Shown: positions 15,615-33,212 of the stretch, one piece after another
How the letters are laid out: the number at the start of each line of letters is the position of its first letter
Position numbering within the stretch: the stretch's first letter is position 1
Origin: Candidatus Woesearchaeota archaeon
Lineage (GTDB): Archaea > Nanobdellota > Nanobdellia > Woesearchaeales > GW2011-AR4
NCBI GenBank assembly: GCA_016185955.1
Contig: JACPMQ010000032.1
Span: 1-35,705, forward strand
Length of the DNA stretch: 35,705 nt
Direction: 5' to 3'
Program-made: the position numbers and the translations under genes
Notes under the pieces: generated by a model
What the model was told of the DNA's origin: nothing
Databases searched by the model: none
The model's input: only the letters and a program-made list of their open reading frames with translations

Positions 15615-16094
15615 TTAAACATATAATCTCCTAATTTTATTTATCAGCTGGGTTGTAGAATGCCCCTTAACAAGAGGTATAAGCGCAATTTTGCCTTTAT
15701 TTTTTTCTACAGCATCTTTTTCTATTATCTGGCTTATATTATAATCGCTGCCTTTTGCGTGTATATTGGGCTTGATTATCTCCAGAATTTTTATAGGATT
15801 ATCTTCGCTGAAAATTGTGGCATAATCAATACATTCAAGCGAAGCTAAGGCTTCTGCCCTGTCATTTTCATTGTTTAATGGCCTTTTAGGTCCTTTGATT
15901 TTTTTAACAGAGCTGTCCGAATTTACTGCAACAATTAAGACATCTCCGAGCTTTTTGGCTTCCTGCAAATACCTTATATGGCCTATATGCAAGATGTCAA
16001 AAACGCCATTTGTTGTAACTATTTTTTTATTCTGCTTCTTTAGGTTTTCAACTGTTTTTTTTAGTGCTTCTTTAGTTAAGATTTTTTTGCGCAT
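15615..16094 (-). CDS. cytidylyl/adenylyltransferase-like protein (RfaE domain II / RibL-like)
   Basis: TNGVFDILHIGHIRYL (HxGH nucleotidyltransferase motif) and VAVNSD. Start moved to ATG 16094 (MRKKILTKE) to avoid overlap with the stop of the upstream gene at 16108. Confidence 0.8.
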   Translation of the reverse strand: MRKKILTKEALKKTVENLKKQNKKIVTTNGVFDILHIGHIRYLQEAKKLGDVLIVAVNSDSSVKKIKGPKRPLNNENDRAEALASLECIDYATIFSEDNPIKILEIIKPNIHAKGSDYNISQIIEKDAVEKNKGKIALIPLVKGHSTTQLINKIRRLYV

Positions 16095-16107
16095 TTTAGC
16101 AAAAACC

Positions 16108-17049
16108 CTATATGACAACCTTTAAAACATTTATTTGTTTTAAAATCGTTGATTTATAGCCATACTTTAGTTCGATATTCAGAGGGCTTGTAAAAGTAGG
16201 TATATTTTTAAAATCTTCTTTGTCAAGTGTGCATATTGCAAAGCCCTGCCCGTTAAAAAGCCTTATCTTATTATTCTCAGCATTGCATTTCAGTTCTTGC
16301 TGTCCTAAAGTGACTTTTACAAGCTCCACTTTATCAAAGTCATCTCTTTCAAGCCTTTTGTCTCCATAAGGATTGCATTTTTCCAAAACCTCGCGGTTTA
16401 TTACATCACCATTTCCAGCATTGCTTATGCTTATCTTAAAATGAATCTTATCAGATGAAACCTCCTCGTCAATTCTTGTAACTGCAACAGGCGCTCCTTG
16501 TGAGGTTAGAGTTTTGCTTTCTGCACTGCAAACCTTATTTTTTTCTAATGGGGCTGTATCAACACATACGCTTGCAGCAGCCTTTGTGGCATAAGAATAG
16601 CATAAAGTAGCCATAATATTGGCTTCGTATTTTTCAGCCCTTAATTTTTCCGATAAAATTTTTCCATCAAATTGGATATTATCTAAGCTGCCTTCAGGAT
16701 AAGCAACAAATGCGCTCGGCAATAAAACATCTGCTAAATCCTTTTCCTTCTCAATATCAATAATAGATTTGTCAAAGCCGCTGATGTAAACCTTGCCATC
16801 AATTTTTTGCTCTTCAGTTTCAGGGTAAGCGCCTTTGTTTCTAATTTCCAATATAATATCCACAGGCACGTCTTTTTCTATTGTGTATTTTTCCTGAGGA
16901 TAATCCTTAATAAAATCTATAGTAATCCCTTCTGTCCCCTTTAGCTCTTTGTCGGAAAAACTCTCTTCTTTTATGCAGCCAGAAATTATATTAACGGCAA
17001 AAAGCAGCAACATGACAAAAAAAATCCTTGGTTTTATAAAATCTGCCAT
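16108..17049 (-). CDS. lipobox lipoprotein, paralog of 17050-18015, unknown family
   Basis: Signal peptide ending in ISGC. Shares KGTEG(I/L)T..F, RNKGAY, A.CY.Y.TKA..SVC.D, QGAPVAVT and YGY blocks with the adjacent gene. Confidence 0.65.
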   Translation of the reverse strand: MADFIKPRIFFVMLLLFAVNIISGCIKEESFSDKELKGTEGITIDFIKDYPQEKYTIEKDVPVDIILEIRNKGAYPETEEQKIDGKVYISGFDKSIIDIEKEKDLADVLLPSAFVAYPEGSLDNIQFDGKILSEKLRAEKYEANIMATLCYSYATKAAASVCVDTAPLEKNKVCSAESKTLTSQGAPVAVTRIDEEVSSDKIHFKISISNAGNGDVINREVLEKCNPYGDKRLERDDFDKVELVKVTLGQQELKCNAENNKIRLFNGQGFAICTLDKEDFKNIPTFTSPLNIELKYGYKSTILKQINVLKVVI

Positions 17050-18015
17050 TTAATCAGCCTTTTCTATTATTATCTCTTTTGATGTTGTAAAAGTATACCC
17101 GTAATTGGTATATATGGTTAATGGTGCGGTGAAAGCATCCTCATTTTTGCTTATTCCCTCTTTTGATTTGCATACCATTCTGTTTTCACCCTCTTCTGCA
17201 TTTTCTTTAAGCAGTATTTCTGCATATTCATTTTGCTCCAGCTTATCAGTCTTGCTGCATTCTAATTCGTTTCCTGATAAAGATGCCTTTACAAGAACAG
17301 CACCAAAGTCTCTTGGAGCGAGCGCTTCACTGCTGCACGCATTGCTTATTTTATTAGCCTTTATAATCCTGCCTTCACCTTTATTCTCCATATAAATAAC
17401 AAACTGCGGCCTTATCATTTTTTCATTTTCTTGAGGCAGTATCTTAGTTTCAATTTTTGTCACTGCAACAGGCGCTCCTTGCCCCTCGCTAAATTCAAGC
17501 ACTTTCATTTCACAGGGCTTCTGCCTTCTTGCAGCATTTGGACTGGCATCAATGCAAACAGAAACATCAGCCTTAGTGCTGTAAGGATAGCATGCAGTCG
17601 CTAAAATTGTTGAAGTATGCGTTTCACTTGAGCCTATGTTTTTTGCGCGCGCATTAATTGTTAAATATTCACTATTACCTTCAGGATTTAAAATAGACTT
17701 GCCTTTAATGCTGAATATCTTTTCCTTTTTTGCGCTATCAGCATCCACATACTGGGTTTCAAATCCAAAAAACAATCTGCCATCTGTTATATCATAAGCC
17801 CCTTTGTTTTTTAGGTTTAATCCAACTTCAAAAATATCTTCTTCAAAAACCTTTTCAGGCATAAATTCTAAAAATTCCATAGTTAAGCCTTCTGTGCCTT
17901 TTCTGATTTCAATATCCGTTATGGGATTTGTATTTTGGCTTGATTTGCAGCCAGCCAAAGCTAAGACAAAAATCAGCACAATCCAAACAATTATTTTGTT
18001 GTGCATTTTAGGCAT
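17050..18015 (-). CDS. lipobox lipoprotein, paralog of 16108-17049, unknown family
   Basis: Signal peptide ending in LAGC. GGAG 5 nt upstream of ATG 18015. Conserved blocks as listed for the paralog. Stop abuts the start of the next gene with 0-nt gap. Confidence 0.65.
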   Translation of the reverse strand: MPKMHNKIIVWIVLIFVLALAGCKSSQNTNPITDIEIRKGTEGLTMEFLEFMPEKVFEEDIFEVGLNLKNKGAYDITDGRLFFGFETQYVDADSAKKEKIFSIKGKSILNPEGNSEYLTINARAKNIGSSETHTSTILATACYPYSTKADVSVCIDASPNAARRQKPCEMKVLEFSEGQGAPVAVTKIETKILPQENEKMIRPQFVIYMENKGEGRIIKANKISNACSSEALAPRDFGAVLVKASLSGNELECSKTDKLEQNEYAEILLKENAEEGENRMVCKSKEGISKNEDAFTAPLTIYTNYGYTFTTSKEIIIEKAD

Positions 18016-20467
18016 ATTGCTCCATAATCCCGTCTACTTTATCTACATAGCCCAAATTTCCAGGAGCGCATCCAAAGCCGTTATAAGCCCTCAAAGCCCT
18101 ATCCCAGCCAGTATAGTCCTTATATTGCTGGCAATTTGAATTTGAGACACTCGCTGCGTAATCCACGTCTGCATTAGGACTAATGACGTACTTACTGTAG
18201 TAATCTAATAAAATGCCAATTCCGCTTTTTATATTACAATCTAGATCATAGGCAGTTTCATCTTCCTTGCAGCCATATTTAACAGCACCGCCACGCACAA
18301 ATACCTCTGGATGGGCATTACTATTGCCGTTTATTTGCATCACCCCACAATCCCCGCCAGAATTGCAAAGAACATTGGCTTTATTATTGGTCCCGCAATT
18401 TATGCTCCCATCCCTACAATGATTTAATCCGGATTCATGTTTAGCAATAGCCAAAGATATTGGAATGCATTTTTGCTCTGCAATGCATTTTTGCTCTGCA
18501 ATTTTTCTGACTTTACTTTCAATCTCTCTTTTAACATTCTCGCTTGACTGCACTATCTGCACTGTATTACTGCCACTTGACGTAAACTCCTCATTATCTT
18601 TCTCAACCATCACACTTACAGGCTTCTCAACCCTGTACTCATATCTTGTTTTAACCTTGAAGTATTTTGTTGTTATTTTTGGACCTTTTAAAACTTTAGT
18701 GCTTGGCTGAAATCTGCATTTTACCTCTTCAAACAAGCTTTCTTCAGAAGACCTTTCCCTTCGCTCTTTTAATTTGATAGAATATCCATTGTATTTAGAG
18801 TCACCTTCACTAAAAAGCCTTGCGCATTCTTTTTTTCCTTCGTCAGCTTTATCATCGCATGATTTTATGCAATTATCCAAGCCGGTATTTTTGTAACTAT
18901 TGCATGCTTTCCTGCAAGGCTCTCTTGCAAATTTTTCTATTGAGCCTTCACACTGCGGCATTTCATACTTATCCCAATTGCAGTCGTCAGTGGAGATTAA
19001 GCTTACAGATTCCGGCATTAAAATCACAAGCTCGCTTATTTTTTTTAGCTTTCCCTGCCAACCCTCATTATTTTTCAGCTCTATTGTCATTGACGGCTCT
19101 ATCAGGTAATCATCACTTACTCCTATCAAAAATGTGCCTTCATGCGAGCTGGAAACCCCCATTTCTATCCTTAATGGACCATTGCTAAATGTTGCAATAG
19201 GATTTTTATCATCAATTTTAGAATCCTCAAAAGGGTCTATATTAACATTTGTCATTGACCTTAAAGTTTCCCTATTAATAAGATAAACCTTTTGCTCGGC
19301 TCCTGTCTCAAAATTAAATTCTGCAAAAGCAGTTATTGTGTTAGAGCCGTCTTTTAATTTGTCGCCTAGAAAGGTGCATGTAAAATCCTGCTCTTCCAAT
19401 GAAAATACAGGGAACGGCTTTTCAGGAACAACTTTATAGGCATATTCTTTCTCATTTTTCCTGCTGCCGTCTTTATAGCAGCCAACCTGTATATTAATTG
19501 GATCGCTTAGCGCTTTGGCTTTTACAGTTCCCCATATTATCGCAGGCTCACTGCCGTAATATACAGAATCAGCAGGCTTCACATTTTCAAGATAAACACC
19601 TAAAGGCTCAAACCTGTTTTCTTCAACTTTGCCCGATATTGCGTAATCTATCCGGCTTTGCAATCCAACCCTAACCGAATTTTTAATATTGTTTAATCCT
19701 TTACTAAAATCCCCCCACATATCTTCCAATGTTAGTCCGCTTTTGTCTCTTACCCATTTAAATCCTACTCCCTGGGCTTGAATATCTTTATATGAAAACA
19801 CAAATAATACTATCAAAAGCCCTATAAAAAAGGCAATAGAAAGTGTATTTTGTGTTTTGGTGTAAATATAGAATATGGTAAACACAAAGAAGAATGGGAT
19901 ATAACTGAAAAAAACAAATTTCTTTAGCAAAGCAAATCCAAAAAAGTCTATAAGAATTAAAAGAATCATAGATTTATAAGCTGCAGAAAAACCGTCGTAA
20001 CTTGCTATAAATGTGAATCCAAAAAGCAATATGTATCCAATATGAATAATCGCTTTTATATTGCCCATCCATTGATTGCTGAGGAATAAAAATGACAGCG
20101 TAATGGCAAAAAACATAAAGCTGATGGATTCTTCTCCTAAAAATTCCCAATCACCTCTTCTCAATTTATTAGTGAGATATACAACTATCAGAAAGCCAAA
20201 AAGAGGAAAAGTAACAACTTTACTTATCACGTTCAGAGAACTCCAATTCAAGTTAATAAGATTTGAATCCCATACAAATCCGGTGTATCTTCCACCGAAA
20301 GCATTCATTAAGTCTATTACAAAAATCAGTAAAGCAACCAATAAAAAAATTGTGCCAGTGTCAGAACCAGTTACACCAACTCTGCTTCTTGAGCTAGCAC
20401 TATTATCATATGCTCTCCCTTCAAAGCCAGGCTCCGCAGTTATAGTGCCGCTGTCGCCCATTCCCAT
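18008..20467 (-). CDS. polytopic membrane protein with C-terminal GH23/SLT lytic transglycosylase domain
   Basis: About 7 N-terminal TM helices, a long extracytoplasmic region with a Cys-rich Cx3C segment, then AIAKHES (catalytic E-S), CGVMQIN, NIKSGIGILL, ALRAYNGFG and YVDKV motifs in the order typical of family-1 lytic transglycosylases. Confidence 0.8.
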   Translation of the reverse strand: MGMGDSGTITAEPGFEGRAYDNSASSRSRVGVTGSDTGTIFLLVALLIFVIDLMNAFGGRYTGFVWDSNLINLNWSSLNVISKVVTFPLFGFLIVVYLTNKLRRGDWEFLGEESISFMFFAITLSFLFLSNQWMGNIKAIIHIGYILLFGFTFIASYDGFSAAYKSMILLILIDFFGFALLKKFVFFSYIPFFFVFTIFYIYTKTQNTLSIAFFIGLLIVLFVFSYKDIQAQGVGFKWVRDKSGLTLEDMWGDFSKGLNNIKNSVRVGLQSRIDYAISGKVEENRFEPLGVYLENVKPADSVYYGSEPAIIWGTVKAKALSDPINIQVGCYKDGSRKNEKEYAYKVVPEKPFPVFSLEEQDFTCTFLGDKLKDGSNTITAFAEFNFETGAEQKVYLINRETLRSMTNVNIDPFEDSKIDDKNPIATFSNGPLRIEMGVSSSHEGTFLIGVSDDYLIEPSMTIELKNNEGWQGKLKKISELVILMPESVSLISTDDCNWDKYEMPQCEGSIEKFAREPCRKACNSYKNTGLDNCIKSCDDKADEGKKECARLFSEGDSKYNGYSIKLKERRERSSEESLFEEVKCRFQPSTKVLKGPKITTKYFKVKTRYEYRVEKPVSVMVEKDNEEFTSSGSNTVQIVQSSENVKREIESKVRKIAEQKCIAEQKCIPISLAIAKHESGLNHCRDGSINCGTNNKANVLCNSGGDCGVMQINGNSNAHPEVFVRGGAVKYGCKEDETAYDLDCNIKSGIGILLDYYSKYVISPNADVDYAASVSNSNCQQYKDYTGWDRALRAYNGFGCAPGNLGYVDKVDGIMEQYA
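18465..18500. repeat. perfect 18-bp tandem duplication inside a CDS
   Basis: atgcatttttgctctgca occurs twice (18465-18482 and 18483-18500). It encodes IAEQKC-IAEQKC just N-terminal of the SLT domain. Confidence 0.9.
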
Positions 20468-20523
20468 TTTAATGCTCTCATTGTTTATGAATTTTTACTA
20501 CGCAGAATTCTTTCCAACCATTA

Positions 20524-21675
20524 TTATTTTTCCCTTGATTCTACCCTTATCTCAACAATATCAAGCTTTGTTCTTGGCTTTATCTCAATGAAATTGTTGC
20601 CTTCCTTCACAAAATCATTAATATTTTTTGAAAATATGTTTTTTTCTTGGTCTATTTCTGAAAGCCTGTTGTTTATGCTCAAGTCAGCCCTTTTATTCTG
20701 CCTATCATCCACAAATTCTATTATCAATATTATGTCCTTTGCTTTTTGAGTCCTATTAACTTCAAAGAAATGGACATTTGTTTTTACTTCCTTTTCCCTG
20801 AATTTAAATTCAATTTGCTCAACACTATAGCTTCCTTTGCTCGTTTTAAAAATTACCTTGTTTTCCCCGGCATTTAAAACAGAAACAGGCACCTGCTGCT
20901 CGTATGGGTCATCACAAACAGGCACTCCTAAAAATACCTCTCTATTGTTTACTAAAACCTGTAATCTGCCAACTTCATCAACATTACGGCAATATGGCAC
21001 AAACCTTAATGCAGCGCTTTCTATATTTGCCAATTCTGCTCCAGTTAATGTGAATATATTCCTGCTTTCCTGCTTGCTCCTGTCTGTTATGTCGCCTATA
21101 ATTTTTATGTCTTCTAAGCTATATTCATTTGTTTTCCAGAACTTGTAGCCAACGGAAGAAACGCTAAAAACAAGCGTGTTTTCCTTCATAAGCAGGCTCT
21201 TTTTTAATCTTACCGGCGCAACAGTCTCAGAGTTAATCTCATTTTCATATATAAGCTCATTATTTAGCTTAATTGCTAAGATTCCATCATGCTTTTTGGC
21301 TTTAAAGGATAAAATAACATTATCCGTATTTTCCAAGTCATTCACGTTAAAGCTAACGGATTTCTCTTTTTTGTCAAACCATGCGTTTCTTGCCACTAAT
21401 GGATTGATTTTTTCAATTTCTTGGGCATTAGTCATTTCAAAAAGGAATATGTTTGGAATTGACTTGTCTTCTATGCTTTTAGCAACATCAATCCTGCCAG
21501 GAAATACCTTAAGCAATACATTTTTGTCTTCTTTCTCATCAATAGTTTTTTTTATGCTCTTGTTTTCAAGCAGCATTTCTCTTTCTGTCTCAGGTAGAAA
21601 AAGTATATATAATGCAATCAATCCAGCAATAACCGCAACTAAAACAGCAGCATTAATGCCCTGAGCTTTCCTCAA
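20524..21675 (-). CDS. N-terminally anchored extracytoplasmic protein with three internal repeats, unknown family
   Basis: MRKAQGINAAVLVAVIAGLIALYILFL anchor. Three modules share L.(I/V).(L/V/I)NN(E/R)...(G/E)(E/N)N..(V/I).(F/I)...(Y/L).(L/V/I)E.I..: IKLNNE..KENTLVF..YSLEDIKI, VLVNNRE..GENKVIF..YSVEQIEF and LSINNRL..GNNFIEI..LDIVEIRV. Confidence 0.6.
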   Translation of the reverse strand: MRKAQGINAAVLVAVIAGLIALYILFLPETEREMLLENKSIKKTIDEKEDKNVLLKVFPGRIDVAKSIEDKSIPNIFLFEMTNAQEIEKINPLVARNAWFDKKEKSVSFNVNDLENTDNVILSFKAKKHDGILAIKLNNELIYENEINSETVAPVRLKKSLLMKENTLVFSVSSVGYKFWKTNEYSLEDIKIIGDITDRSKQESRNIFTLTGAELANIESAALRFVPYCRNVDEVGRLQVLVNNREVFLGVPVCDDPYEQQVPVSVLNAGENKVIFKTSKGSYSVEQIEFKFREKEVKTNVHFFEVNRTQKAKDIILIIEFVDDRQNKRADLSINNRLSEIDQEKNIFSKNINDFVKEGNNFIEIKPRTKLDIVEIRVESREK

Positions 21676-21768
21676 AAATCATCACCTTTTTAAAATAATT
21701 TTATTTACCCTAATGTGAAAAATGAATAGCTTTATATTTAAATGTTTTGAATTTTTGTATGCTTTAAA

Positions 21769-22851
21769 ATGAAAATTATACACCAAGATTTTAAAAAAGG
21801 CGAAGTTAAGGTAAAAGTTGACAATCTCGATGATTTGTGGTATTTAAGCAGCATAGTGGAAAAAAATGATTTTATCAAAGGCAAAACCCTAAGAAAAATA
21901 AAGTTTGGGGATGAAACCCAAAGAAACCAAAAATCAGTAAAAAAGGCGCTTTTTCTTCTTATTCAGGCAGAAAGGGTTGAATTCAGCAAATTTTCAAACG
22001 AGCTTAGGATATCTGGAATAGTGAAACAAGGAACAGAAGATGTGCCTTTAGGCTCTTACCACACTTTTAATGTCGAAGAAAACTCAGTTATCACGATAAT
22101 CAAGCAAAAATGGCTTAAATTCCAATTAGACAAATTAAAGGACGCCAGCAGTAAAGCAGATTCAAAAATTTTAATCTGCGTGCATGACAGGGAAGAGGCA
22201 TATTTTGCGCTGATTAAAAAATATGGCTACGAGCTTCTTTCGCATATCAAAGGCAATGTGGCAAAAAAGGCAGATATTAAAAAATTTGAAGCCACTTTTT
22301 ACAGAGATGCAGCAAAACAATTAAAAGAGTACAATTCAAGATATAAGCTAAACAAAATCATAATTGCAAGCCCGGCATTTTGGAAAGAAGAGCTGCTTAA
22401 AGAAATAGATGAAGAAATAAAAAATAAAATAATAATTGCAACGTGCTCTTCAGTGACTGAAAATGCCATTAATGAAGTGCTCAAAAGGCCAGAGACAGAA
22501 AAAGCATTAAAGCAGGACAGGATTGCAAAAGAATACAGGCATGTTGAAAGGCTTTTTGTAGAAATATCCAAGAATAATCTTGCTTGTTATGGATTGGAAG
22601 AAACAAAAAATGCAGCCATGTCAGGAGCTGTAAGCTTATTGCTGATAACTGATAATTTTATACAGAAAAAAAGAATTGAGAATCAATATAGCCCAATAGA
22701 GGAAATAATGAAAGCTGTTGATAACTCTAATGGAGATATAGCAATAATAAGTTCAGAGCATGAGGCAGGGAAAAAATTAGATGGCTTAGGAGGAATTGCA
22801 GCTATATTGAGGTTCAAGTTTAATACAACCTACAAATTTTCTGCCAATTGA
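21769..22851 (+). CDS. pelA: Pelota (aRF1-related mRNA surveillance factor)
   Basis: MKII...GEVKVKVDNLDDLWYLSSIV N-terminal domain and length typical of archaeal Pelota. TATA-like box about 30 nt upstream. Confidence 0.9.
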   Translation: MKIIHQDFKKGEVKVKVDNLDDLWYLSSIVEKNDFIKGKTLRKIKFGDETQRNQKSVKKALFLLIQAERVEFSKFSNELRISGIVKQGTEDVPLGSYHTFNVEENSVITIIKQKWLKFQLDKLKDASSKADSKILICVHDREEAYFALIKKYGYELLSHIKGNVAKKADIKKFEATFYRDAAKQLKEYNSRYKLNKIIIASPAFWKEELLKEIDEEIKNKIIIATCSSVTENAINEVLKRPETEKALKQDRIAKEYRHVERLFVEISKNNLACYGLEETKNAAMSGAVSLLLITDNFIQKKRIENQYSPIEEIMKAVDNSNGDIAIISSEHEAGKKLDGLGGIAAILRFKFNTTYKFSAN

Positions 22852-24323: not shown

Positions 24324-24983
24324 ATGGGCTATGAAAACCTTACAATAATAGGAACATCTCATATAGCAAGGCAAAGCCTTAATGATGTAAAAAAGGCAAT
24401 TGGGGAGATAAAGCCAGACATAATTGCTTTGGAATTAGATAAAAGGAGATTTTACAGCCTTTTTAAAAAACAAGGAAAGATAAGCATTTATGCAATTAAA
24501 AAGGTTGGAATAAAGGGATTTGTTTTTTCTGTTATAGGAGCTTGGGCTGAGAAAAAACTCGGAAAAATTGTTGGAGTTGCTCCAGGCTCTGAAATGAAAA
24601 AAGCCATAAAGCTGGCAAAAAAACACAACATACAGATAGCATTAATCGACCAAGACATAGAAATTACCTTAAAAAAATTCTCAAAAAGCATTACTTGGAA
24701 AGAAAAATGGAATTTTTTAGTGGATATGCTTAAGGCTATTTTTTCCAAAAAAAAGGCTATTGAATTTGACCTTTCAACTGTGCCGAGCAAGGAAATAATA
24801 GGAAAATTAATAGAGAATGTAAAAGAGCGTTATCCTAATGTCTATGAAGTGCTTATAGAGGAAAGAAACATTATAATGGCAGAAAACATAAAAAAAATCA
24901 TGGAAGAAAATAAAGACAAAAAGATTTTAGCAATTATAGGAGCAGGGCATGAAGATGAAATAATGAGGTTAGCGGCTCAGTAG
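24324..24983 (+). CDS. TraB/PrgY family protein
   Basis: IIGTSHIARQS...IALELD N-terminal block and C-terminal IIGAGHE block. Confidence 0.8.
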   Translation: MGYENLTIIGTSHIARQSLNDVKKAIGEIKPDIIALELDKRRFYSLFKKQGKISIYAIKKVGIKGFVFSVIGAWAEKKLGKIVGVAPGSEMKKAIKLAKKHNIQIALIDQDIEITLKKFSKSITWKEKWNFLVDMLKAIFSKKKAIEFDLSTVPSKEIIGKLIENVKERYPNVYEVLIEERNIIMAENIKKIMEENKDKKILAIIGAGHEDEIMRLAAQ

Positions 24984-25232: not shown

Positions 25233-25994
25233 ATGAGGGAGATAGTTGATTTCAAAGATAAAGTGCAGCGCTACTTTAAATTTACTCCTTTAGAAGTAAA
25301 GAACCTTATAATTGCAGTTTCGGCAATAGCTTTTATAATCTCTTTTAGGGAATGGGGATACGGCAGAGAATTTAGCTTTAGGATAGGGCTTTTTAATTTT
25401 TTTAATGCGATTTTAATTGTTGCGTTATCTTTCTTATTCCACATATCGATGCAAAGAATATGGTCATTAGCTACTGGCTATAGGTTGGAATGGAAAATGT
25501 GGGGCTTAGGATTATTATTTGGGATAATAATGGCATTTCTGACAAATGGTGTTTTTTGGCTCATATTGCCCGGAGGCTTTATAGTGCACCATATGGCAGG
25601 CCATAGGCTTGGCTGGTTTAGATACGACATAAATTATTGGGCTTTGGGGGTTATTGCAGTAACAGGAACTTTTGCTACCGTAACTCTTGCAGCAATATTC
25701 AAAGCATTAAGCGGCTTTTTTACCAGTTCTATAATCCAGAAAGTCATAATTTTTAATTTAGTTTATGCTTTTTATAGCTTAATTCCCATCTCGCCTTTAG
25801 ACGGCAGCAGAACCTTTTATGGCAGCAGAATGCTTTATGCATTCTCAACATCAGCTATTTTGGCTGCAATAGTATTGTTAAACCCTAAATTAAATATTAG
25901 CGTGGGGTTTTCCCTGCTCTCTTCACTTTTAATTGCAATAATATCGTGGGTTATGTACTACATATTTTTTGAGCACAAGGCTTGGGCCCCATAA
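25233..25994 (+). CDS. M50 (site-2 protease)-like polytopic membrane protein lacking HExxH
   Basis: LIPISPLDGSRTF matches the NxxPxxPLDG motif of M50 peptidases. The position where HExxH is expected reads FHISMQRIW. Confidence 0.55.
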   Translation: MREIVDFKDKVQRYFKFTPLEVKNLIIAVSAIAFIISFREWGYGREFSFRIGLFNFFNAILIVALSFLFHISMQRIWSLATGYRLEWKMWGLGLLFGIIMAFLTNGVFWLILPGGFIVHHMAGHRLGWFRYDINYWALGVIAVTGTFATVTLAAIFKALSGFFTSSIIQKVIIFNLVYAFYSLIPISPLDGSRTFYGSRMLYAFSTSAILAAIVLLNPKLNISVGFSLLSSLLIAIISWVMYYIFFEHKAWAP

Positions 25995-26050: not shown

Positions 26051-26383
26051 ATGGCAGATTTTTTTTATAAGAGCTGGGCAGAATTCTTTTTTTTTGTAGT
26101 TATGATTTTAGGATTTGTTTTTGCTTTATGGGCTACAAGCCATAGCCCATTTATCAGCTATATTGTTGTTTTTTTAAGCGGCATGATAGGAGGCAGACTG
26201 CTTTACTACAGAAAAAAAAATCTTATGTTTCCTTATTACATAATCCTTGCCGGATTTTTAATTGGGTATTTGTTTGGAACATATTACGGCAACAAGAAAG
26301 TTGTAATATTACTTTTTGTTTTGGGAATCTTGTTAAACTATCATCTTCACAATAAAGGATATATAAGGGATATAGCGTTTTAA
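26051..26383 (+). CDS. small membrane protein (3-4 TM), unknown function
   Basis: 110-aa hydrophobic ORF followed 4 nt later by the terminator-like hairpin 26387-26421. Confidence 0.5.
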   Translation: MADFFYKSWAEFFFFVVMILGFVFALWATSHSPFISYIVVFLSGMIGGRLLYYRKKNLMFPYYIILAGFLIGYLFGTYYGNKKVVILLFVLGILLNYHLHNKGYIRDIAF

Positions 26384-31871: not shown

Positions 31872-33212
31872 ATGCTACATAGCATGTTGCCGCTAAATGT
31901 AACCTTAAGCTACTATAAAAGAAAAGATATTCAAGAAGAAATTATTATGGCTGCTGCCAACAAGGAAGTTGCTGTTAGATATGATGATAAATTTGGCAAT
32001 AGGCCTGATGTGCTTAAAAATCCAAATGATATTTTAGAGCTGGCAAAGCAGAAAGCTACTTCTTTTCATTGCTCTGAAGAGCTTTGGAGCAACCCTTTGC
32101 AATTAAATCCCAATATGAAAAAAAATGAATTAGACTCATTAAGGATAGGATGGGATTTGGTGCTTGACATTGATTGTAGTTTTTTTGAATATTCAAAGAT
32201 TGCGGCTGATCTTGTGGTTAAAGCGCTTAAGTTTTGTGAAATAAATGGAATCTCATGCAAATTTTCCGGCAATAGAGGCTTTCATATAGGCGTTCCATTT
32301 GAGTCTTTTCCAGAAATGATTGGCAATGAAAAAACAAGGGATATGTTTCCTAATGCTGCAAGAAAAATAGCTTGCTACATAAAAGAACTGATAAAAAAGC
32401 CTCTTGGAGATAAAATAATGCAGCTTGAGAAAAACAATTTTTCCAGAGTAATGGAAAAAACAAAACAAGACGCTAACAAAATTACTTATTATGAGCAGAA
32501 TGATCTTAATGATAAGGTTGCAAGACTAAATGTCGAGCCTTTCTTGCATATTGACACTCTATTAATATCCTCAAGGCATTTATACAGAATGCCGTATTCG
32601 CTGCATGAGAAATCTGGCTTGGCATCAATTCCAATAAATGCTGCTCAAATTCTGGATTTTAGAAAGGAGGATGCAAACCCAAAAAACCTCAAAATTTCCA
32701 AGTACATGTTTTTGGACAGGGGGAATATCGTTAGGGGAGAAGCCAAAAAGCTGATTATGCAGGCTTTTGATTTTACTTCAAAAATGGAAAAACAAACAGA
32801 ATTCAAGATAAAAAGGGAATATACGCTCAAATCAGCAATTCCAGAAGAATTTTTTCCCCCATGCATAAAGCTGATAAGCAATGGATTATCAGACGGAAGA
32901 AAAAGAGCTTTGTTTATATTAATTAATTTTCTGGCAAGCCTTGGCTGGAAATATGAAGACATAGAAAACTACTTAAAAGAATGGAACAAAAGGAATAAAG
33001 AGCCATTAAGGGAAAATTACCTGCTGGGGCAATTGAGGTATCATAAGTCGCAAAAGAAAAAAATATTGCCGCCAAATTGCAATAGCAACATGCACTATAT
33101 AGGAATAGGGGTGTGCAAGCCCGATAATTTATGCAGCAAAATTAAGAATCCCGTAACATATGCCCTAAGAAAATCGCCATTTTCGCAGAAATATGACAAA
33201 CAGACAAAATAA
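31872..33212 (+). CDS. priS: DNA primase, PriS catalytic domain fused to PriL-CTD-like Fe-S domain
   Basis: AEP motifs GWDLVLDIDC (DxD), FSGNRGFHI and SRHLYRMPYSLHEKSG. The C-terminal part has FPPCIKLI...GRKRALFILINFL plus PPNC, GVC and NLC cysteines like the PriL 4Fe-4S domain. ATG 31884 (MLPLNV) fits the TATA-like box at 31853-31862 better than ATG 31872. Confidence 0.8.
   Translation: MLHSMLPLNVTLSYYKRKDIQEEIIMAAANKEVAVRYDDKFGNRPDVLKNPNDILELAKQKATSFHCSEELWSNPLQLNPNMKKNELDSLRIGWDLVLDIDCSFFEYSKIAADLVVKALKFCEINGISCKFSGNRGFHIGVPFESFPEMIGNEKTRDMFPNAARKIACYIKELIKKPLGDKIMQLEKNNFSRVMEKTKQDANKITYYEQNDLNDKVARLNVEPFLHIDTLLISSRHLYRMPYSLHEKSGLASIPINAAQILDFRKEDANPKNLKISKYMFLDRGNIVRGEAKKLIMQAFDFTSKMEKQTEFKIKREYTLKSAIPEEFFPPCIKLISNGLSDGRKRALFILINFLASLGWKYEDIENYLKEWNKRNKEPLRENYLLGQLRYHKSQKKKILPPNCNSNMHYIGIGVCKPDNLCSKIKNPVTYALRKSPFSQKYDKQTK

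What the first reader, a model, noticed from the sequence alone, without database searches (positions are those of the whole stretch)
16108..21675. Operon made only of envelope proteins, built around a membrane-anchored murein-type lytic transglycosylase in an archaeon
Four co-directional minus-strand genes are packed with gaps of 56, -8 and 0 nt. (i) A 383-aa N-terminally anchored protein with three internal repeats. (ii) An 819-aa protein with about 7 TM helices, a large extracytoplasmic region and a C-terminal GH23/SLT domain. (iii, iv) Two paralogous lipobox lipoproteins. Apart from the SLT domain, I recognise no characterised family in any of them. The surrounding genes are clearly archaeal, and archaea do not make murein. 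A murein-cleaving domain displayed outside the cell therefore has no obvious self substrate. Working hypothesis (inference): this is a contact-dependent attachment or wall-breaching module of an episymbiotic or predatory small archaeon that targets a bacterial partner. The lipoproteins and the repeat protein would be structural or adhesive partners. The adjacent glycan cluster and a cytidylyltransferase directly downstream may decorate it.
Basis: partly seen in the sequence, partly recalled or inferred. Interest (0 to 1): 0.8.

Follow-up and report, generated by a model that had tools for sequence, protein, structure and literature searches.

The report
Archaeal surface module carrying swappable wall-cutting enzymes
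A gene cassette found throughout Woesearchaeota (tiny, uncultured archaea) encodes four cell-surface proteins, one of which carries at its outer tip an enzyme that cuts bacterial cell wall, so these wall-less archaea appear built to act on the walls of bacteria.

Summary
Four minus-strand genes (A 383 aa, B 819 aa, C 321 aa, D 313 aa; gaps 56/-8/0 nt) lie on a genuine Candidatus Woesearchaeota contig.

A is an N-terminally anchored protein with three carbohydrate-binding-like jelly rolls. B has about 7 TM helices, a beta-sandwich ectodomain and a C-terminal GH23/SLT domain. C and D are paralogous lipobox lipoproteins.

The SLT call is below Pfam threshold for this sequence alone. It is secured by 30 orthologous tails with an invariant catalytic Glu and G-x-M-Q motif, whose profile hits only murein lytic transglycosylases in PDB.

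New here:
- The order pelota | A-B-(2-5 C/D lipoproteins) recurs in all 76 related loci wherever the contig is long enough.
- B's C-terminal module is swappable. Of 53 orthologues, 30 carry SLT (one also Amidase_2), 3 GH73 and 1 M23. So 64% carry a murein hydrolase, drawn from unrelated catalytic classes. This points to peptidoglycan as the real substrate.

The idea that Woesearchaeota SLT proteins mean bacterial hosts or prey is already published (2013-2022). The cassette and the head-swapping were not in the papers I searched. The adjacent glycan genes are not part of the module. Contact-dependent attack is still inference.

The parts
20524..21675 (-). Gene A: 383-aa bitopic surface protein. 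It has an N-terminal signal-anchor helix (residues 9-27) followed by three beta-jelly-roll (galactose-binding/CBM-like) domains. It is the most conserved member of the cassette.
   Evidence: ORF; TM helix. 472 homologue clusters at 59-70% identity, all Woesearchaeota/Nanoarchaeota. AF2 model pLDDT 71. Foldseek top hits are the CBM-like jelly rolls of GH35/GH2 enzymes and BcsB, E 2e-7 to 1e-5. No Pfam or PDB sequence hit.
18008..20467 (-). Gene B: 819-aa polytopic membrane protein that carries the ectodomain and the hydrolase head.
   Evidence: ORF. The family has 1066 representatives at 50% identity clustering. It lies directly downstream of A in all loci with room.
19775..20362 (-). B membrane domain (residues about 36-231, about 7 TM helices). 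D52, H142 and D174 are conserved inside helices.
   Evidence: Hydropathy and AF2 helices. Conservation is at least 89% across 58 orthologues. No Pfam or PDB relative.
18593..19654 (-). B conserved ectodomain (residues about 272-625): beta-sandwiches plus a Cys-rich helical hairpin (residues 503-552).
   Evidence: AF2 pLDDT 70-88 in this stretch. Foldseek returns only generic Ig-like hits. Invariant Cys and Gly/Pro positions.
18464..18502 (-). Exact 18-nt tandem duplication (IAEQKC x2) in the linker before the SLT domain.
   Evidence: TRF: period 18, 2.2 copies, 100% match. Residues 656-667.
18032..18466 (-). B C-terminal GH23/SLT lytic-transglycosylase domain (residues about 668-812). The catalytic Glu678 codon lies at 18434-18436.
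   Evidence: Pfam SLT 21.0 bits, E 2.5e-4, for the domain alone. Lineage profile E 1.4e-40. Invariant Glu, G-x-M-Q and YNGxG motifs in 30 orthologues. The profile hits EtgA 1e-5, Slt70 4e-4 and MltC 1e-3 in PDB.
17050..18015 (-). Gene C: 321-aa lipobox lipoprotein (LAG|C23), C/D family.
   Evidence: ORF. 184 homologue clusters. Invariant Cys23 and conserved Cys pattern.
16108..17049 (-). Gene D: 313-aa lipobox lipoprotein (ISG|C25), paralogue of C.
   Evidence: 30% identity to C, E 1e-32. Matches the C/D profile at 1.5e-87.
21676..21768 (.). 93-bp AT-rich divergent intergenic region between A and pelota. It presumably holds the promoters of both (inferred).
   Evidence: Sequence read. The divergent pelota-A arrangement is conserved in essentially every locus with upstream sequence.
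21769..22851 (+). Pelota (aRF1-like ribosome rescue factor). It is an invariant divergent neighbour and a positional marker of the cassette, not a functional part.
   Evidence: Pfam eRF1_1/2/3. Synteny.

Best explanation
This is the local copy of a lineage-wide Woesearchaeota surface module. It is always arranged as pelota <-> A, B, then 2-5 C/D lipoproteins.

B sits in the membrane with its N-terminus inside and about 7 TM helices. It projects a disulfide-rich beta-sandwich stalk, and its distal C-terminus carries an exchangeable 'head'. Here, and in most species, the head is a murein hydrolase. In this window it is a GH23 lytic transglycosylase with an intact catalytic Glu678.

A has three carbohydrate-binding-like jelly rolls on a membrane anchor. 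The lipid-anchored C and D proteins are co-inherited partners and probably form the scaffold and glycan-binding part.

These archaea are not known to make murein, and the enzyme is tethered to their own membrane. The module therefore most likely cuts the peptidoglycan of bacteria (or bacterial sacculi) that touch the archaeal surface. That would open the wall locally for attachment or access and release muropeptides.

What is shown: gene structure, synteny, domain identities, head-swapping. What is inferred: complex formation, topology, foreign substrate, contact dependence, biological purpose.
For: Synteny:
- The order pelota(-) A(+) B(+) C/D(+) appears in all 76 related loci wherever the contig extends. 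Pelota is adjacent in 66-67 of 67 loci with room upstream. B follows A in 61 of 61: 58 directly adjacent, two (L007, L036) with 1.1-1.7 kb inserted, and one (L075) with a divergent B found only at the laxer threshold. C/D follows B in 49 of 49. The apparent misses are artefacts of stop-to-stop ORF coordinates.

Head-swapping:
- Of 53 complete B orthologues, 30 have an SLT-type tail (26 by Pfam, best 4.5e-20).
- L071 has SLT plus Amidase_2 (1.4e-28). Its best PDB relatives are AmpDh2/AmpD at 2e-14.
- L021, L035 and L045 have GH73 (2e-18). The best PDB relative is FlgJ.
- L070 has M23 (4.5e-8).
- An independent set of 48 metagenome representatives gives SLT 20, GH73 2 and phage-tail lysozyme 1.
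- Head types are interleaved on a tree of A.

Catalytic motifs: the Glu and the G-x-M-Q motif are invariant, and all PDB profile hits are murein transglycosylases.

Other points:
- A's fold is CBM-like.
- The lipobox is invariant in C/D, and lipoproteins are prevalent in DPANN (PMC12462473).
- Among archaea, only Methanobacteria and Methanopyri are known to make a murein-like wall (PMC12352652, PMC10117817).
Against: - About 36% of orthologues lack any recognisable hydrolase (short B, or fn3/Ig/crystallin tails). The conserved core function is therefore something other than wall cutting and is unknown.
- There is no evidence that A, B, C and D physically assemble.
- The AF2 model of the SLT region is low confidence (pLDDT below 40).
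- This sequence alone is below the Pfam gathering score.
- I could not test genome-wide that these archaea lack mur genes.
- No bacterial partner has been shown for any Woesearchaeote.
- A membrane-tethered enzyme could not reach the murein of a diderm bacterium without some way through the outer membrane.
Confidence: 0.5

Rival explanations
1. Nutrient scavenging rather than interaction with living cells. The surface-tethered hydrolases digest free peptidoglycan debris (necromass). The released amino sugars and peptides are captured next to the cell by an auxotrophic, fermentative archaeon.
For: The same domain evidence applies as for the main model. The SLT + AmpD-like amidase tandem in L071 processes glycan strands and then strips stem peptides, which looks like a degradative pipeline. 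The literature reports muramoyl-tetrapeptide carboxypeptidase as abundant in related Pacearchaeota (PMC11537232). Tethering enzymes to the cell surface is a common way to retain products.
Against: The nearest solved relatives of the SLT and GH73 heads are machine-associated wall-breaching enzymes (EtgA, FlgJ), not bulk degraders, though the margins are small. A single hydrolase on an elaborate, strictly conserved four-to-seven-protein scaffold is unusual for simple polymer foraging. No transporter or amino-sugar catabolic genes are linked to the cassette in any locus examined.
Confidence: 0.2
2. The cassette is a housekeeping envelope scaffold of this lineage, such as a surface-layer anchor or cell-surface organiser. 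The hydrolase head is an opportunistic add-on used for defence or competition against bacteria, much like a membrane-bound bacteriocin.
For: The cassette shows universal presence, fixed genomic position and very high conservation of A (59-70% identity over 472 clusters), whether or not a hydrolase is present. Tails are replaced by fn3/Ig/crystallin or are missing in about a third of species. Archaeal PG hydrolases that kill bacteria exist (PMC12352652).
Against: No member matches any known S-layer or envelope family. 64% carrying a muralytic head is high for an optional weapon, which in other archaea is patchy at about 5% of genomes (PMC12352652). This rival overlaps with the main model on substrate and differs only in purpose.
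Confidence: 0.15
3. Autolysin for an undiscovered endogenous wall polymer. Woesearchaeota would make a murein-like or other GlcNAc-containing sacculus, and the module remodels it during growth or division, like membrane-bound Mlt enzymes or FtsEX-controlled hydrolases in bacteria.
For: The cassette looks essential: conserved, syntenic and of housekeeping character. Mixing SLT, GH73, amidase and M23 domains is also typical of bacterial autolysins. B's conserved polar TM residues could couple to a cytoplasmic signal.
Against: No murein or pseudomurein has been reported outside Methanobacteria and Methanopyri (PMC12352652, PMC10117817). Papers analysing Woesearchaeota genomes treat these enzymes as foreign-directed and report mur genes only in co-occurring bacteria (PMC9723730). 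A third of species have no hydrolase head. No wall-synthesis genes lie near the cassette in any locus.
Confidence: 0.08
4. The GH23 domain acts on a non-murein glycan, such as chitin or the archaeon's own surface glycans, or is catalytically dead and serves as a binding module.
For: Some GH23 members are chitinases (own knowledge). This sequence scores below the Pfam threshold. The AF2 model is poor for this domain.
Against: The catalytic Glu and the motifs are intact and invariant. Orthologous positions are occupied by Amidase_2 and M23 domains, which attack the peptide part of murein and have no role on chitin.
Confidence: 0.05

Closest known systems
Murein-like lytic transglycosylase proteins of Woese-/Pacearchaeota (Castelle 2021 fam00969, PMC8204110; Vigneron 2022, PMC9723730; earlier AR20 genome, Castelle 2015; Rinke 2013)
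   Same: The lineage, the GH23/SLT domain, the extracellular prediction and the hypothesis that they target bacterial walls are all the same. B may well belong to, or overlap with, that family.
   Different: Those reports flag the domain in scattered MAGs (5 of 28 in one study). They do not describe the 7-TM scaffold, the pelota-linked A-B-C/D cassette, or the replacement of SLT by GH73, M23 or amidase domains at the same position. I could not verify family identity because the supplement is not held.
Bacterial membrane-bound and machine-associated lytic transglycosylases (MltC, Slt70; EtgA/VirB1-type of T3SS/T4SS; FlgJ for GH73)
   Same: The catalytic motifs match (E-S, G-x-M-Q, A-Y-N-x-G). 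The enzyme is tethered to the membrane. The best PDB relatives are EtgA (1e-5), Slt70 and MltC, and FlgJ for the GH73 heads. The logic is also shared: a hydrolase attached to an envelope structure cuts murein locally.
   Different: The host is an archaeon with no known murein. The enzyme is fused to a 7-TM protein with a beta-sandwich stalk. No secretion ATPases, pilus genes or flagellar genes are linked.
Secreted archaeal peptidoglycan hydrolases that kill bacteria (M23 + PG_binding_1, Halobacteria; PMC12352652)
   Same: Archaeal enzymes with bacterial-type muralytic domains directed at foreign murein. Domain shuffling of the catalytic module is seen in both. The paper notes that PGH homologues are prominent in Nanoarchaeota.
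   Different: Those enzymes are soluble, have canonical wall-binding domains, are patchy (about 5% of genomes) and look horizontally acquired. Here the head sits on a vertically inherited, lineage-wide membrane scaffold without a known wall-binding domain.
Gram-positive conjugation wall hydrolases (PrgK/TcpG/CwlT type; own knowledge)
   Same: Membrane-anchored proteins with interchangeable muralytic modules (SLT, NlpC/P60, M23), used to breach murein locally for a surface machine.
   Different: They act on the producer's own wall and are encoded with VirB4/VirD4 ATPases. Neither applies here.
BcsB, periplasmic subunit of bacterial cellulose synthase (structural analogue of protein A)
   Same: A single-anchor membrane protein with tandem carbohydrate-binding jelly rolls, encoded next to a polytopic membrane partner. 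Foldseek E is about 2e-6.
   Different: The TM-scores are low (0.2) and reflect only domain-level similarity. A lacks the flavodoxin-like domains, its anchor is N-terminal rather than C-terminal, and no GT2 synthase is present.

Membership tests
GH23 / SLT family lytic transglycosylase (PF01464) | Catalytic glutamate in the E-S motif at the end of the first helix | tested here: met
   HES at B residues 677-679. The Glu is invariant in 30 orthologous tails.
GH23 / SLT family lytic transglycosylase (PF01464) | Motif II G-[LIV]-M-Q and motif III A-Y-N-x-G | tested here: met
   GVMQ at 708-711 and AYNGFG at 794-799. G, M and Q are invariant or at least 90% conserved.
GH23 / SLT family lytic transglycosylase (PF01464) | Score above the Pfam gathering threshold (21.3 bits) | tested here: inconclusive
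   The window protein scores 14.6 bits (full length) and 21.0 bits (domain alone), both just below threshold. 26 of 53 orthologous tails match at E<=1e-3, up to 4.5e-20, and the window tail matches their profile at 1.4e-40.
GH23 / SLT family lytic transglycosylase (PF01464) | Lysozyme-like alpha-helical fold | tested here: inconclusive
   The AF2 model has pLDDT below 40 over residues 622-819, because only four sequences cover that part of the alignment. The sequence profile hits only murein transglycosylases in PDB.
GH23 / SLT family lytic transglycosylase (PF01464) | Cleaves MurNAc-beta-1,4-GlcNAc and forms 1,6-anhydro-MurNAc | not testable with these tools
   This needs an enzyme assay.
Lipobox lipoproteins (archaeal AliA/AliB-dependent) | [LVI][ASTVI][GAS]C after a positively charged n-region and a hydrophobic h-region | tested here: met
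   C has LAG-C23 and D has ISG-C25. The Cys is invariant, and the consensus is A-G-C in 30 family members.
Lipobox lipoproteins (archaeal AliA/AliB-dependent) | The lipidation enzyme (arCOG02177/AliA) is present in the genome | not tested
   Only 35.7 kb of the genome is available. AliA is reported as present in DPANN with gaps (PMC12462473).
Specialised wall hydrolases of secretion systems, pili or flagella (VirB1/EtgA/FlgJ type) | Encoded with, and dependent on, a T3SS, T4SS, T4P or flagellar apparatus (ATPases, secretin/rod/pilin genes) | tested here: not met
   No such genes appear in the window or in the annotated neighbourhoods of L001-L003. The A N-terminus does not fit the archaeal class III (prepilin) signal pattern; this was read from the sequence and is my own judgement.
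Known archaeal S-layer or envelope protein families | Match to a described S-layer or envelope family or solved structure | tested here: not met
   A, C, D and the B core have no Pfam, NCBIfam or PDB sequence hit. Foldseek returns only generic Ig-like or CBM-like domains.
BcsB (cellulose synthase subunit B) | Two CBD plus two flavodoxin-like domains, a C-terminal TM anchor, and a BcsA GT2 partner | tested here: not met
   Only the jelly-roll domains resemble BcsB (TM-score about 0.2). The anchor is N-terminal and no GT2 is in the cassette.

The most novel reading that the evidence does not exclude
The pelota-linked A-B-C/D cassette is the conserved host-contact (feeding or attachment) organelle of Woesearchaeales-type archaea. 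B's exchangeable head is matched to the wall chemistry of the partner. This would mean that most species of this very large archaeal radiation live on bacteria rather than on other archaea. It would also supply a genetic marker (head type) for predicting each lineage's host class.
Probability: 0.3. Interest if true: 0.85.

Novelty: new variant of a known kind. Interest (0 to 1): 0.6.

Why it matters
No Woesearchaeote has been cultured, and whether these abundant archaea depend on bacteria is an open question.

Earlier work rested on sporadic SLT annotations. This analysis shows that the hydrolase sits on a strictly conserved, vertically inherited surface module. The head position has been filled repeatedly by four unrelated classes of murein-cleaving enzyme. 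Many of these, including the one in this window, are too divergent for routine annotation; NCBI calls it 'hypothetical protein'.

The result is a defined set of proteins to express, localise and image. It also gives a predictor (head type) to correlate with co-occurring bacteria, which makes the episymbiosis or predation hypothesis directly testable. Separately, it identifies three large uncharacterised protein families (A, B core, C/D) that appear to be core envelope components of a major archaeal lineage.

Tried and rejected
1. Secretion-system or pilus reading (VirB1/VirB6/VirB7/VirB8-like or TssJLM-like composition). No ATPases or other components are linked in the window or in annotated relatives. 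I keep this only as an analogy.
2. A as an archaeal type IV pilin. The N-terminus (MRKAQG-INAAVLV...) does not fit the class III signal pattern, and the model shows a plain signal anchor.
3. Known S-layer or envelope families for A, C and D. Nothing turned up in Pfam, NCBIfam or PDB profile searches.
4. Identity of B's membrane domain. A profile of 58 sequences finds nothing in PDB or Pfam. The conserved D52/H142/D174 remain unexplained.
5. Homology between the C/D lipoproteins and the B ectodomain. hhalign gives only E 0.017 and 0.01, essentially a shared C-terminal beta-hairpin motif. Not established.
6. Functional link to the downstream nucleotidyltransferase and glycan cluster. These genes are absent from all 76 related loci. 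Rejected.
7. Phage origin of the SLT domain. tblastn against 50,697 phage records found no match.
8. Foldseek of the B model. The PDB search gave only generic Ig-like hits, none below E 1e-3. The viral library gave nothing meaningful: a single hit below 1e-3 (E 1.8e-4, TM-score 0.07).
9. Sigma-70 promoter and terminator scan. Promoter-like matches were at chance level and terminator-like matches only slightly above it (9 against 4.5 expected). The scan does not apply to archaeal promoters.
10. Checking whether fam00969 of Castelle 2021 is the B family. The relevant supplement is not held.


Full report
**1. What is in the window**

- A: 20524-21675, 383 aa
- B: 18008-20467, 819 aa
- C: 17050-18015, 321 aa
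- D: 16108-17049, 313 aa

The gaps are 56, -8 and 0 nt. A fifth ORF (15615-16118) overlaps D by 11 nt.

GC content is even, at 0.30-0.41 across the window. The neighbours are archaeal: pelota, a Hef-type DEAD/ERCC4/HhH helicase-nuclease, a fused PriS-PriL primase, and ribosomal proteins L3 and L4. NCBI holds proteins A and C as hypothetical proteins HYX01_02150 and HYX01_02140 of a Candidatus Woesearchaeota archaeon, on a contig of exactly 35,705 bp. The contig is therefore archaeal and not chimeric.

**2. The four proteins**

*Protein A.* It has one N-terminal hydrophobic helix at residues 9-27. An AlphaFold2 model (mean pLDDT 71) shows three consecutive beta-sandwich domains.

Foldseek against PDB gives E 2e-7 to 1e-5 and probability about 1.0. 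The hits are the galactose-binding/CBM-like jelly rolls of GH35 and GH2 glycosidases and BcsB, the membrane-anchored glucan-guiding subunit of cellulose synthase. TM-scores are low, so the resemblance is at the level of single domains.

Sequence support for three internal repeats is weak: R1-R2 E 0.0012, R2-R3 E 0.084, and no match between R1 and R3.

A is strikingly conserved, with 472 clusters at 59-70% identity.

*Protein B.* It has about 7 TM helices between residues 36 and 231. A long helix follows, then a beta-rich ectodomain that is modelled reasonably (pLDDT 70-88 for residues 290-620). The ectodomain contains a Cys-rich helical hairpin, and all 20 cysteines lie after residue 330. The C-terminal domain comes last.

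Foldseek finds only generic Ig-like matches for the ectodomain.

Within the membrane region, D52, H142 and D174 are at least 89% conserved in 58 orthologues. A profile of that region matches nothing in PDB or Pfam.

*Proteins C and D.* They are paralogues (30% identity, E 1e-32). The lipobox cysteine is invariant, and a conserved cysteine pattern runs through 30 family members. Lipobox proteins are reported to be prevalent in DPANN archaea (PMC12462473).

None of A, C, D or the B core matches Pfam, NCBIfam or PDB sequences.

**3. Is the SLT call real?**

On its own the call is marginal. Pfam SLT scores 14.6 bits for the full protein and 21.0 bits for the excised domain, against a gathering score of 21.3. 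The AlphaFold model is poor there, with pLDDT below 40.

The call is rescued by orthologues:
- Among 53 complete B proteins from related genomes, 26 tails hit SLT at E<=1e-3, with a best value of 4.5e-20.
- An iterated lineage profile unites 30 tails, including the window's at E 1.4e-40.
- In their alignment, the catalytic Glu (window Glu678, in HES) and G-x-M-Q are invariant or nearly so. CN(I/V)xxG and YNG(W/F)G are conserved.
- A profile of these 30 tails hits only murein lytic transglycosylases in PDB: EtgA 1e-5, Slt70 4e-4, MltC 1e-3.

I accept the domain as a GH23 lytic transglycosylase with an intact active site. Activity is untested.

**4. Synteny**

Three first look-ups already showed the arrangement pelota (divergent), A, B, then two or more C/D-type genes.

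A scan of one genome per GTDB species returned 73 further loci. All are from Woesearchaeota, Nanoarchaeota or Nanoarchaeia MAGs. Local HMM searches across all loci gave the same order everywhere the contig is long enough:
- Pelota is adjacent and divergent in essentially all 67 loci with room upstream.
- B follows A in 61 of 61. In 58 it is directly adjacent. Two (L007, L036) have a 1.1-1.7 kb insertion. One (L075) has a divergent B detected only at the laxer threshold.
- A C/D gene follows B in 49 of 49.

The apparent misses printed come from stop-to-stop ORF coordinates.

The usual cassette has three lipoproteins (31 of 40 loci). The window has two, and L001 has five.

An exhaustive profile search finds 1066 B-family representatives at 50% identity clustering. 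The first, word-indexed search had found only nine.

The refuting condition 'never syntenic' therefore fails decisively. This is a lineage-wide, vertically inherited module.

**5. The key new result: the head of B is exchangeable, and it is nearly always a murein hydrolase**

The conserved part of B ends near residue 625, and what follows varies. Among the 53 complete tails:

| Head type | Count | Notes |
|---|---|---|
| SLT-type | 30 | two subtypes, one with a Cys-rich insertion as in the window |
| SLT + Amidase_2 | 1 (within the 30) | L071; Amidase_2 1.4e-28; best PDB relatives AmpDh2/AmpD/AmiD at 2e-14 |
| GH73 glucosaminidase | 3 | L021, L045, L035; up to 2.3e-18; best PDB relative FlgJ |
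| Peptidase M23 | 1 | L070; 4.5e-8 |

So 34 of 53 (64%) carry a muralytic head. The rest have fn3/Ig-like or beta/gamma-crystallin domains, or B is simply short.

An independent sample of 48 metagenome representatives gave SLT 20, GH73 2 and phage-tail lysozyme 1. On a tree of the A proteins the head types are interleaved, which implies repeated replacement.

GH23 and GH73 cut different bonds of the glycan strand. Amidase_2 removes the stem peptide. M23 cuts peptide cross-links. The only thing these unrelated catalysts share is peptidoglycan. This is much stronger evidence that murein is the real substrate than the single sub-threshold SLT hit in the window.

**6. What the cassette is not**

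- The downstream ORF is an RfaE-domain-II-type heptose-1-phosphate adenylyltransferase (TIGR02199, 1e-57). Neither it nor the glycan-synthesis genes at about 8-15 kb occur in any of the 76 related loci. They are not part of the module.
- No secretion ATPases, pilins or flagellar genes are linked.
- The SLT domain has no phage match.
- A possible distant relationship between the C/D family and the B ectodomain stays unproven (E 0.01-0.017).

**7. Mechanism**

What is shown: gene structure, conservation, domain identities and head-swapping.

What is inferred:
- B sits with its N-terminus in the cytoplasm and its C-terminal ectodomain and head outside. Seven helices and a cysteine-rich ectodomain support this.
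- A, C and D are co-displayed and probably assemble with B. A provides glycan-binding-type modules.
- The tethered head cuts murein that comes into contact with the archaeal surface.

Among archaea, only Methanobacteria and Methanopyri are known to make a murein-like wall (PMC12352652, PMC10117817). The substrate is therefore most likely bacterial.

The evidence cannot decide among three purposes: attachment or penetration of a living partner, killing of competitors, or harvesting wall debris. The nearest solved relatives of the SLT and GH73 heads are machine-associated wall-breaching enzymes (EtgA, FlgJ), which is a mild hint towards local breaching.

Roughly a third of species lack a hydrolase head. 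The conserved core must therefore have another, unknown function, such as scaffold, adhesion or envelope organisation.

**8. Comparison with the literature**

SLT-domain proteins in Woesearchaeota and Pacearchaeota, and the inference of bacterial hosts or prey, are already published:
- Castelle 2021 (PMC8204110; family fam00969), which cites Rinke 2013 and Castelle 2015
- Vigneron 2022 (PMC9723730; 'vampiristic' MAGs, 5 of 28)
- Further mentions in PMC10936187 and PMC11537232

Archaeal peptidoglycan hydrolases that kill bacteria have been demonstrated for secreted halobacterial enzymes. That paper also notes that homologues are prominent in Nanoarchaeota (PMC12352652).

In the papers I could search and read, I did not find three things: the 7-TM scaffold, the pelota-linked four-to-seven-gene cassette, or the repeated swapping of muralytic classes at one position. 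The full-text searches cover open-access papers only, so prior description elsewhere cannot be excluded.

**9. Verdict**

- The substrate inference is strengthened.
- The phrase 'operon built around the transglycosylase' should be inverted. It is a conserved scaffold with an exchangeable head.
- The glycan-cluster link is rejected.
- The headline hypothesis is not new.

The finding is a new variant of a known kind. Interest is moderate to high, because it converts a long-standing speculation about an uncultured radiation into a defined, testable molecular module.

Noticed in passing
window 18464-18502: An exact 18-nt tandem duplication (2.2 copies, 100% match) encodes IAEQKC twice, in the linker just before the SLT domain of B. 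It looks like a recent slippage event and adds one extra cysteine.
   Followed up: partly
window 31872-33212 (+): A single 446-aa ORF matches both the small and the large subunit of the archaeal/eukaryotic DNA primase (PF01896 and PF04104). It is a fused PriS-PriL primase.
   Followed up: no
It overlaps gene D by 11 nt. Neither it nor the glycan genes at 8-15 kb occur in any of the 76 related loci.
   Followed up: yes
window 19775-20362 (B residues 36-231): Three polar residues inside TM helices of B (D52, H142, D174) are conserved in at least 89% of 58 orthologues. This suggests a catalytic, ion-coupled or subunit-contact role for a membrane domain with no known relatives.
   Followed up: partly
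L071:13996-15135: This B orthologue carries two muralytic domains in tandem: SLT (6.9e-13) followed by an AmpD/AmpDh2-like N-acetylmuramoyl-L-alanine amidase (1.4e-28). That combination would cut glycan strands and then strip the stem peptides.
   Followed up: partly
L001:10028-16300: Five C/D-family lipoprotein genes lie in a row after B, against two in the window and three in most genomes. The last is 585 aa, with a long Cys-rich C-terminal extension.
   Followed up: partly
L007:9522-10662 and L036:11161-12895: Among loci long enough to show both A and B, these are the only two in which they are not directly adjacent; 1.1-1.7 kb is inserted. I did not examine the inserted sequence.
   Followed up: no
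window 21676-22851 and all related loci: The cassette is always transcribed divergently from pelota, across a short AT-rich spacer (93 bp in the window). Why this linkage to a ribosome-rescue gene is so strictly kept is unexplained.
   Followed up: partly
window 24324-24983 (+): A TraB/PrgY/GumN-family protein, together with the two unknown ORFs after it (25233-25994, 26051-26383) and the Hef helicase-nuclease, recurs near the cassette in several close relatives (L003, L009, L010, L017).
   Followed up: no
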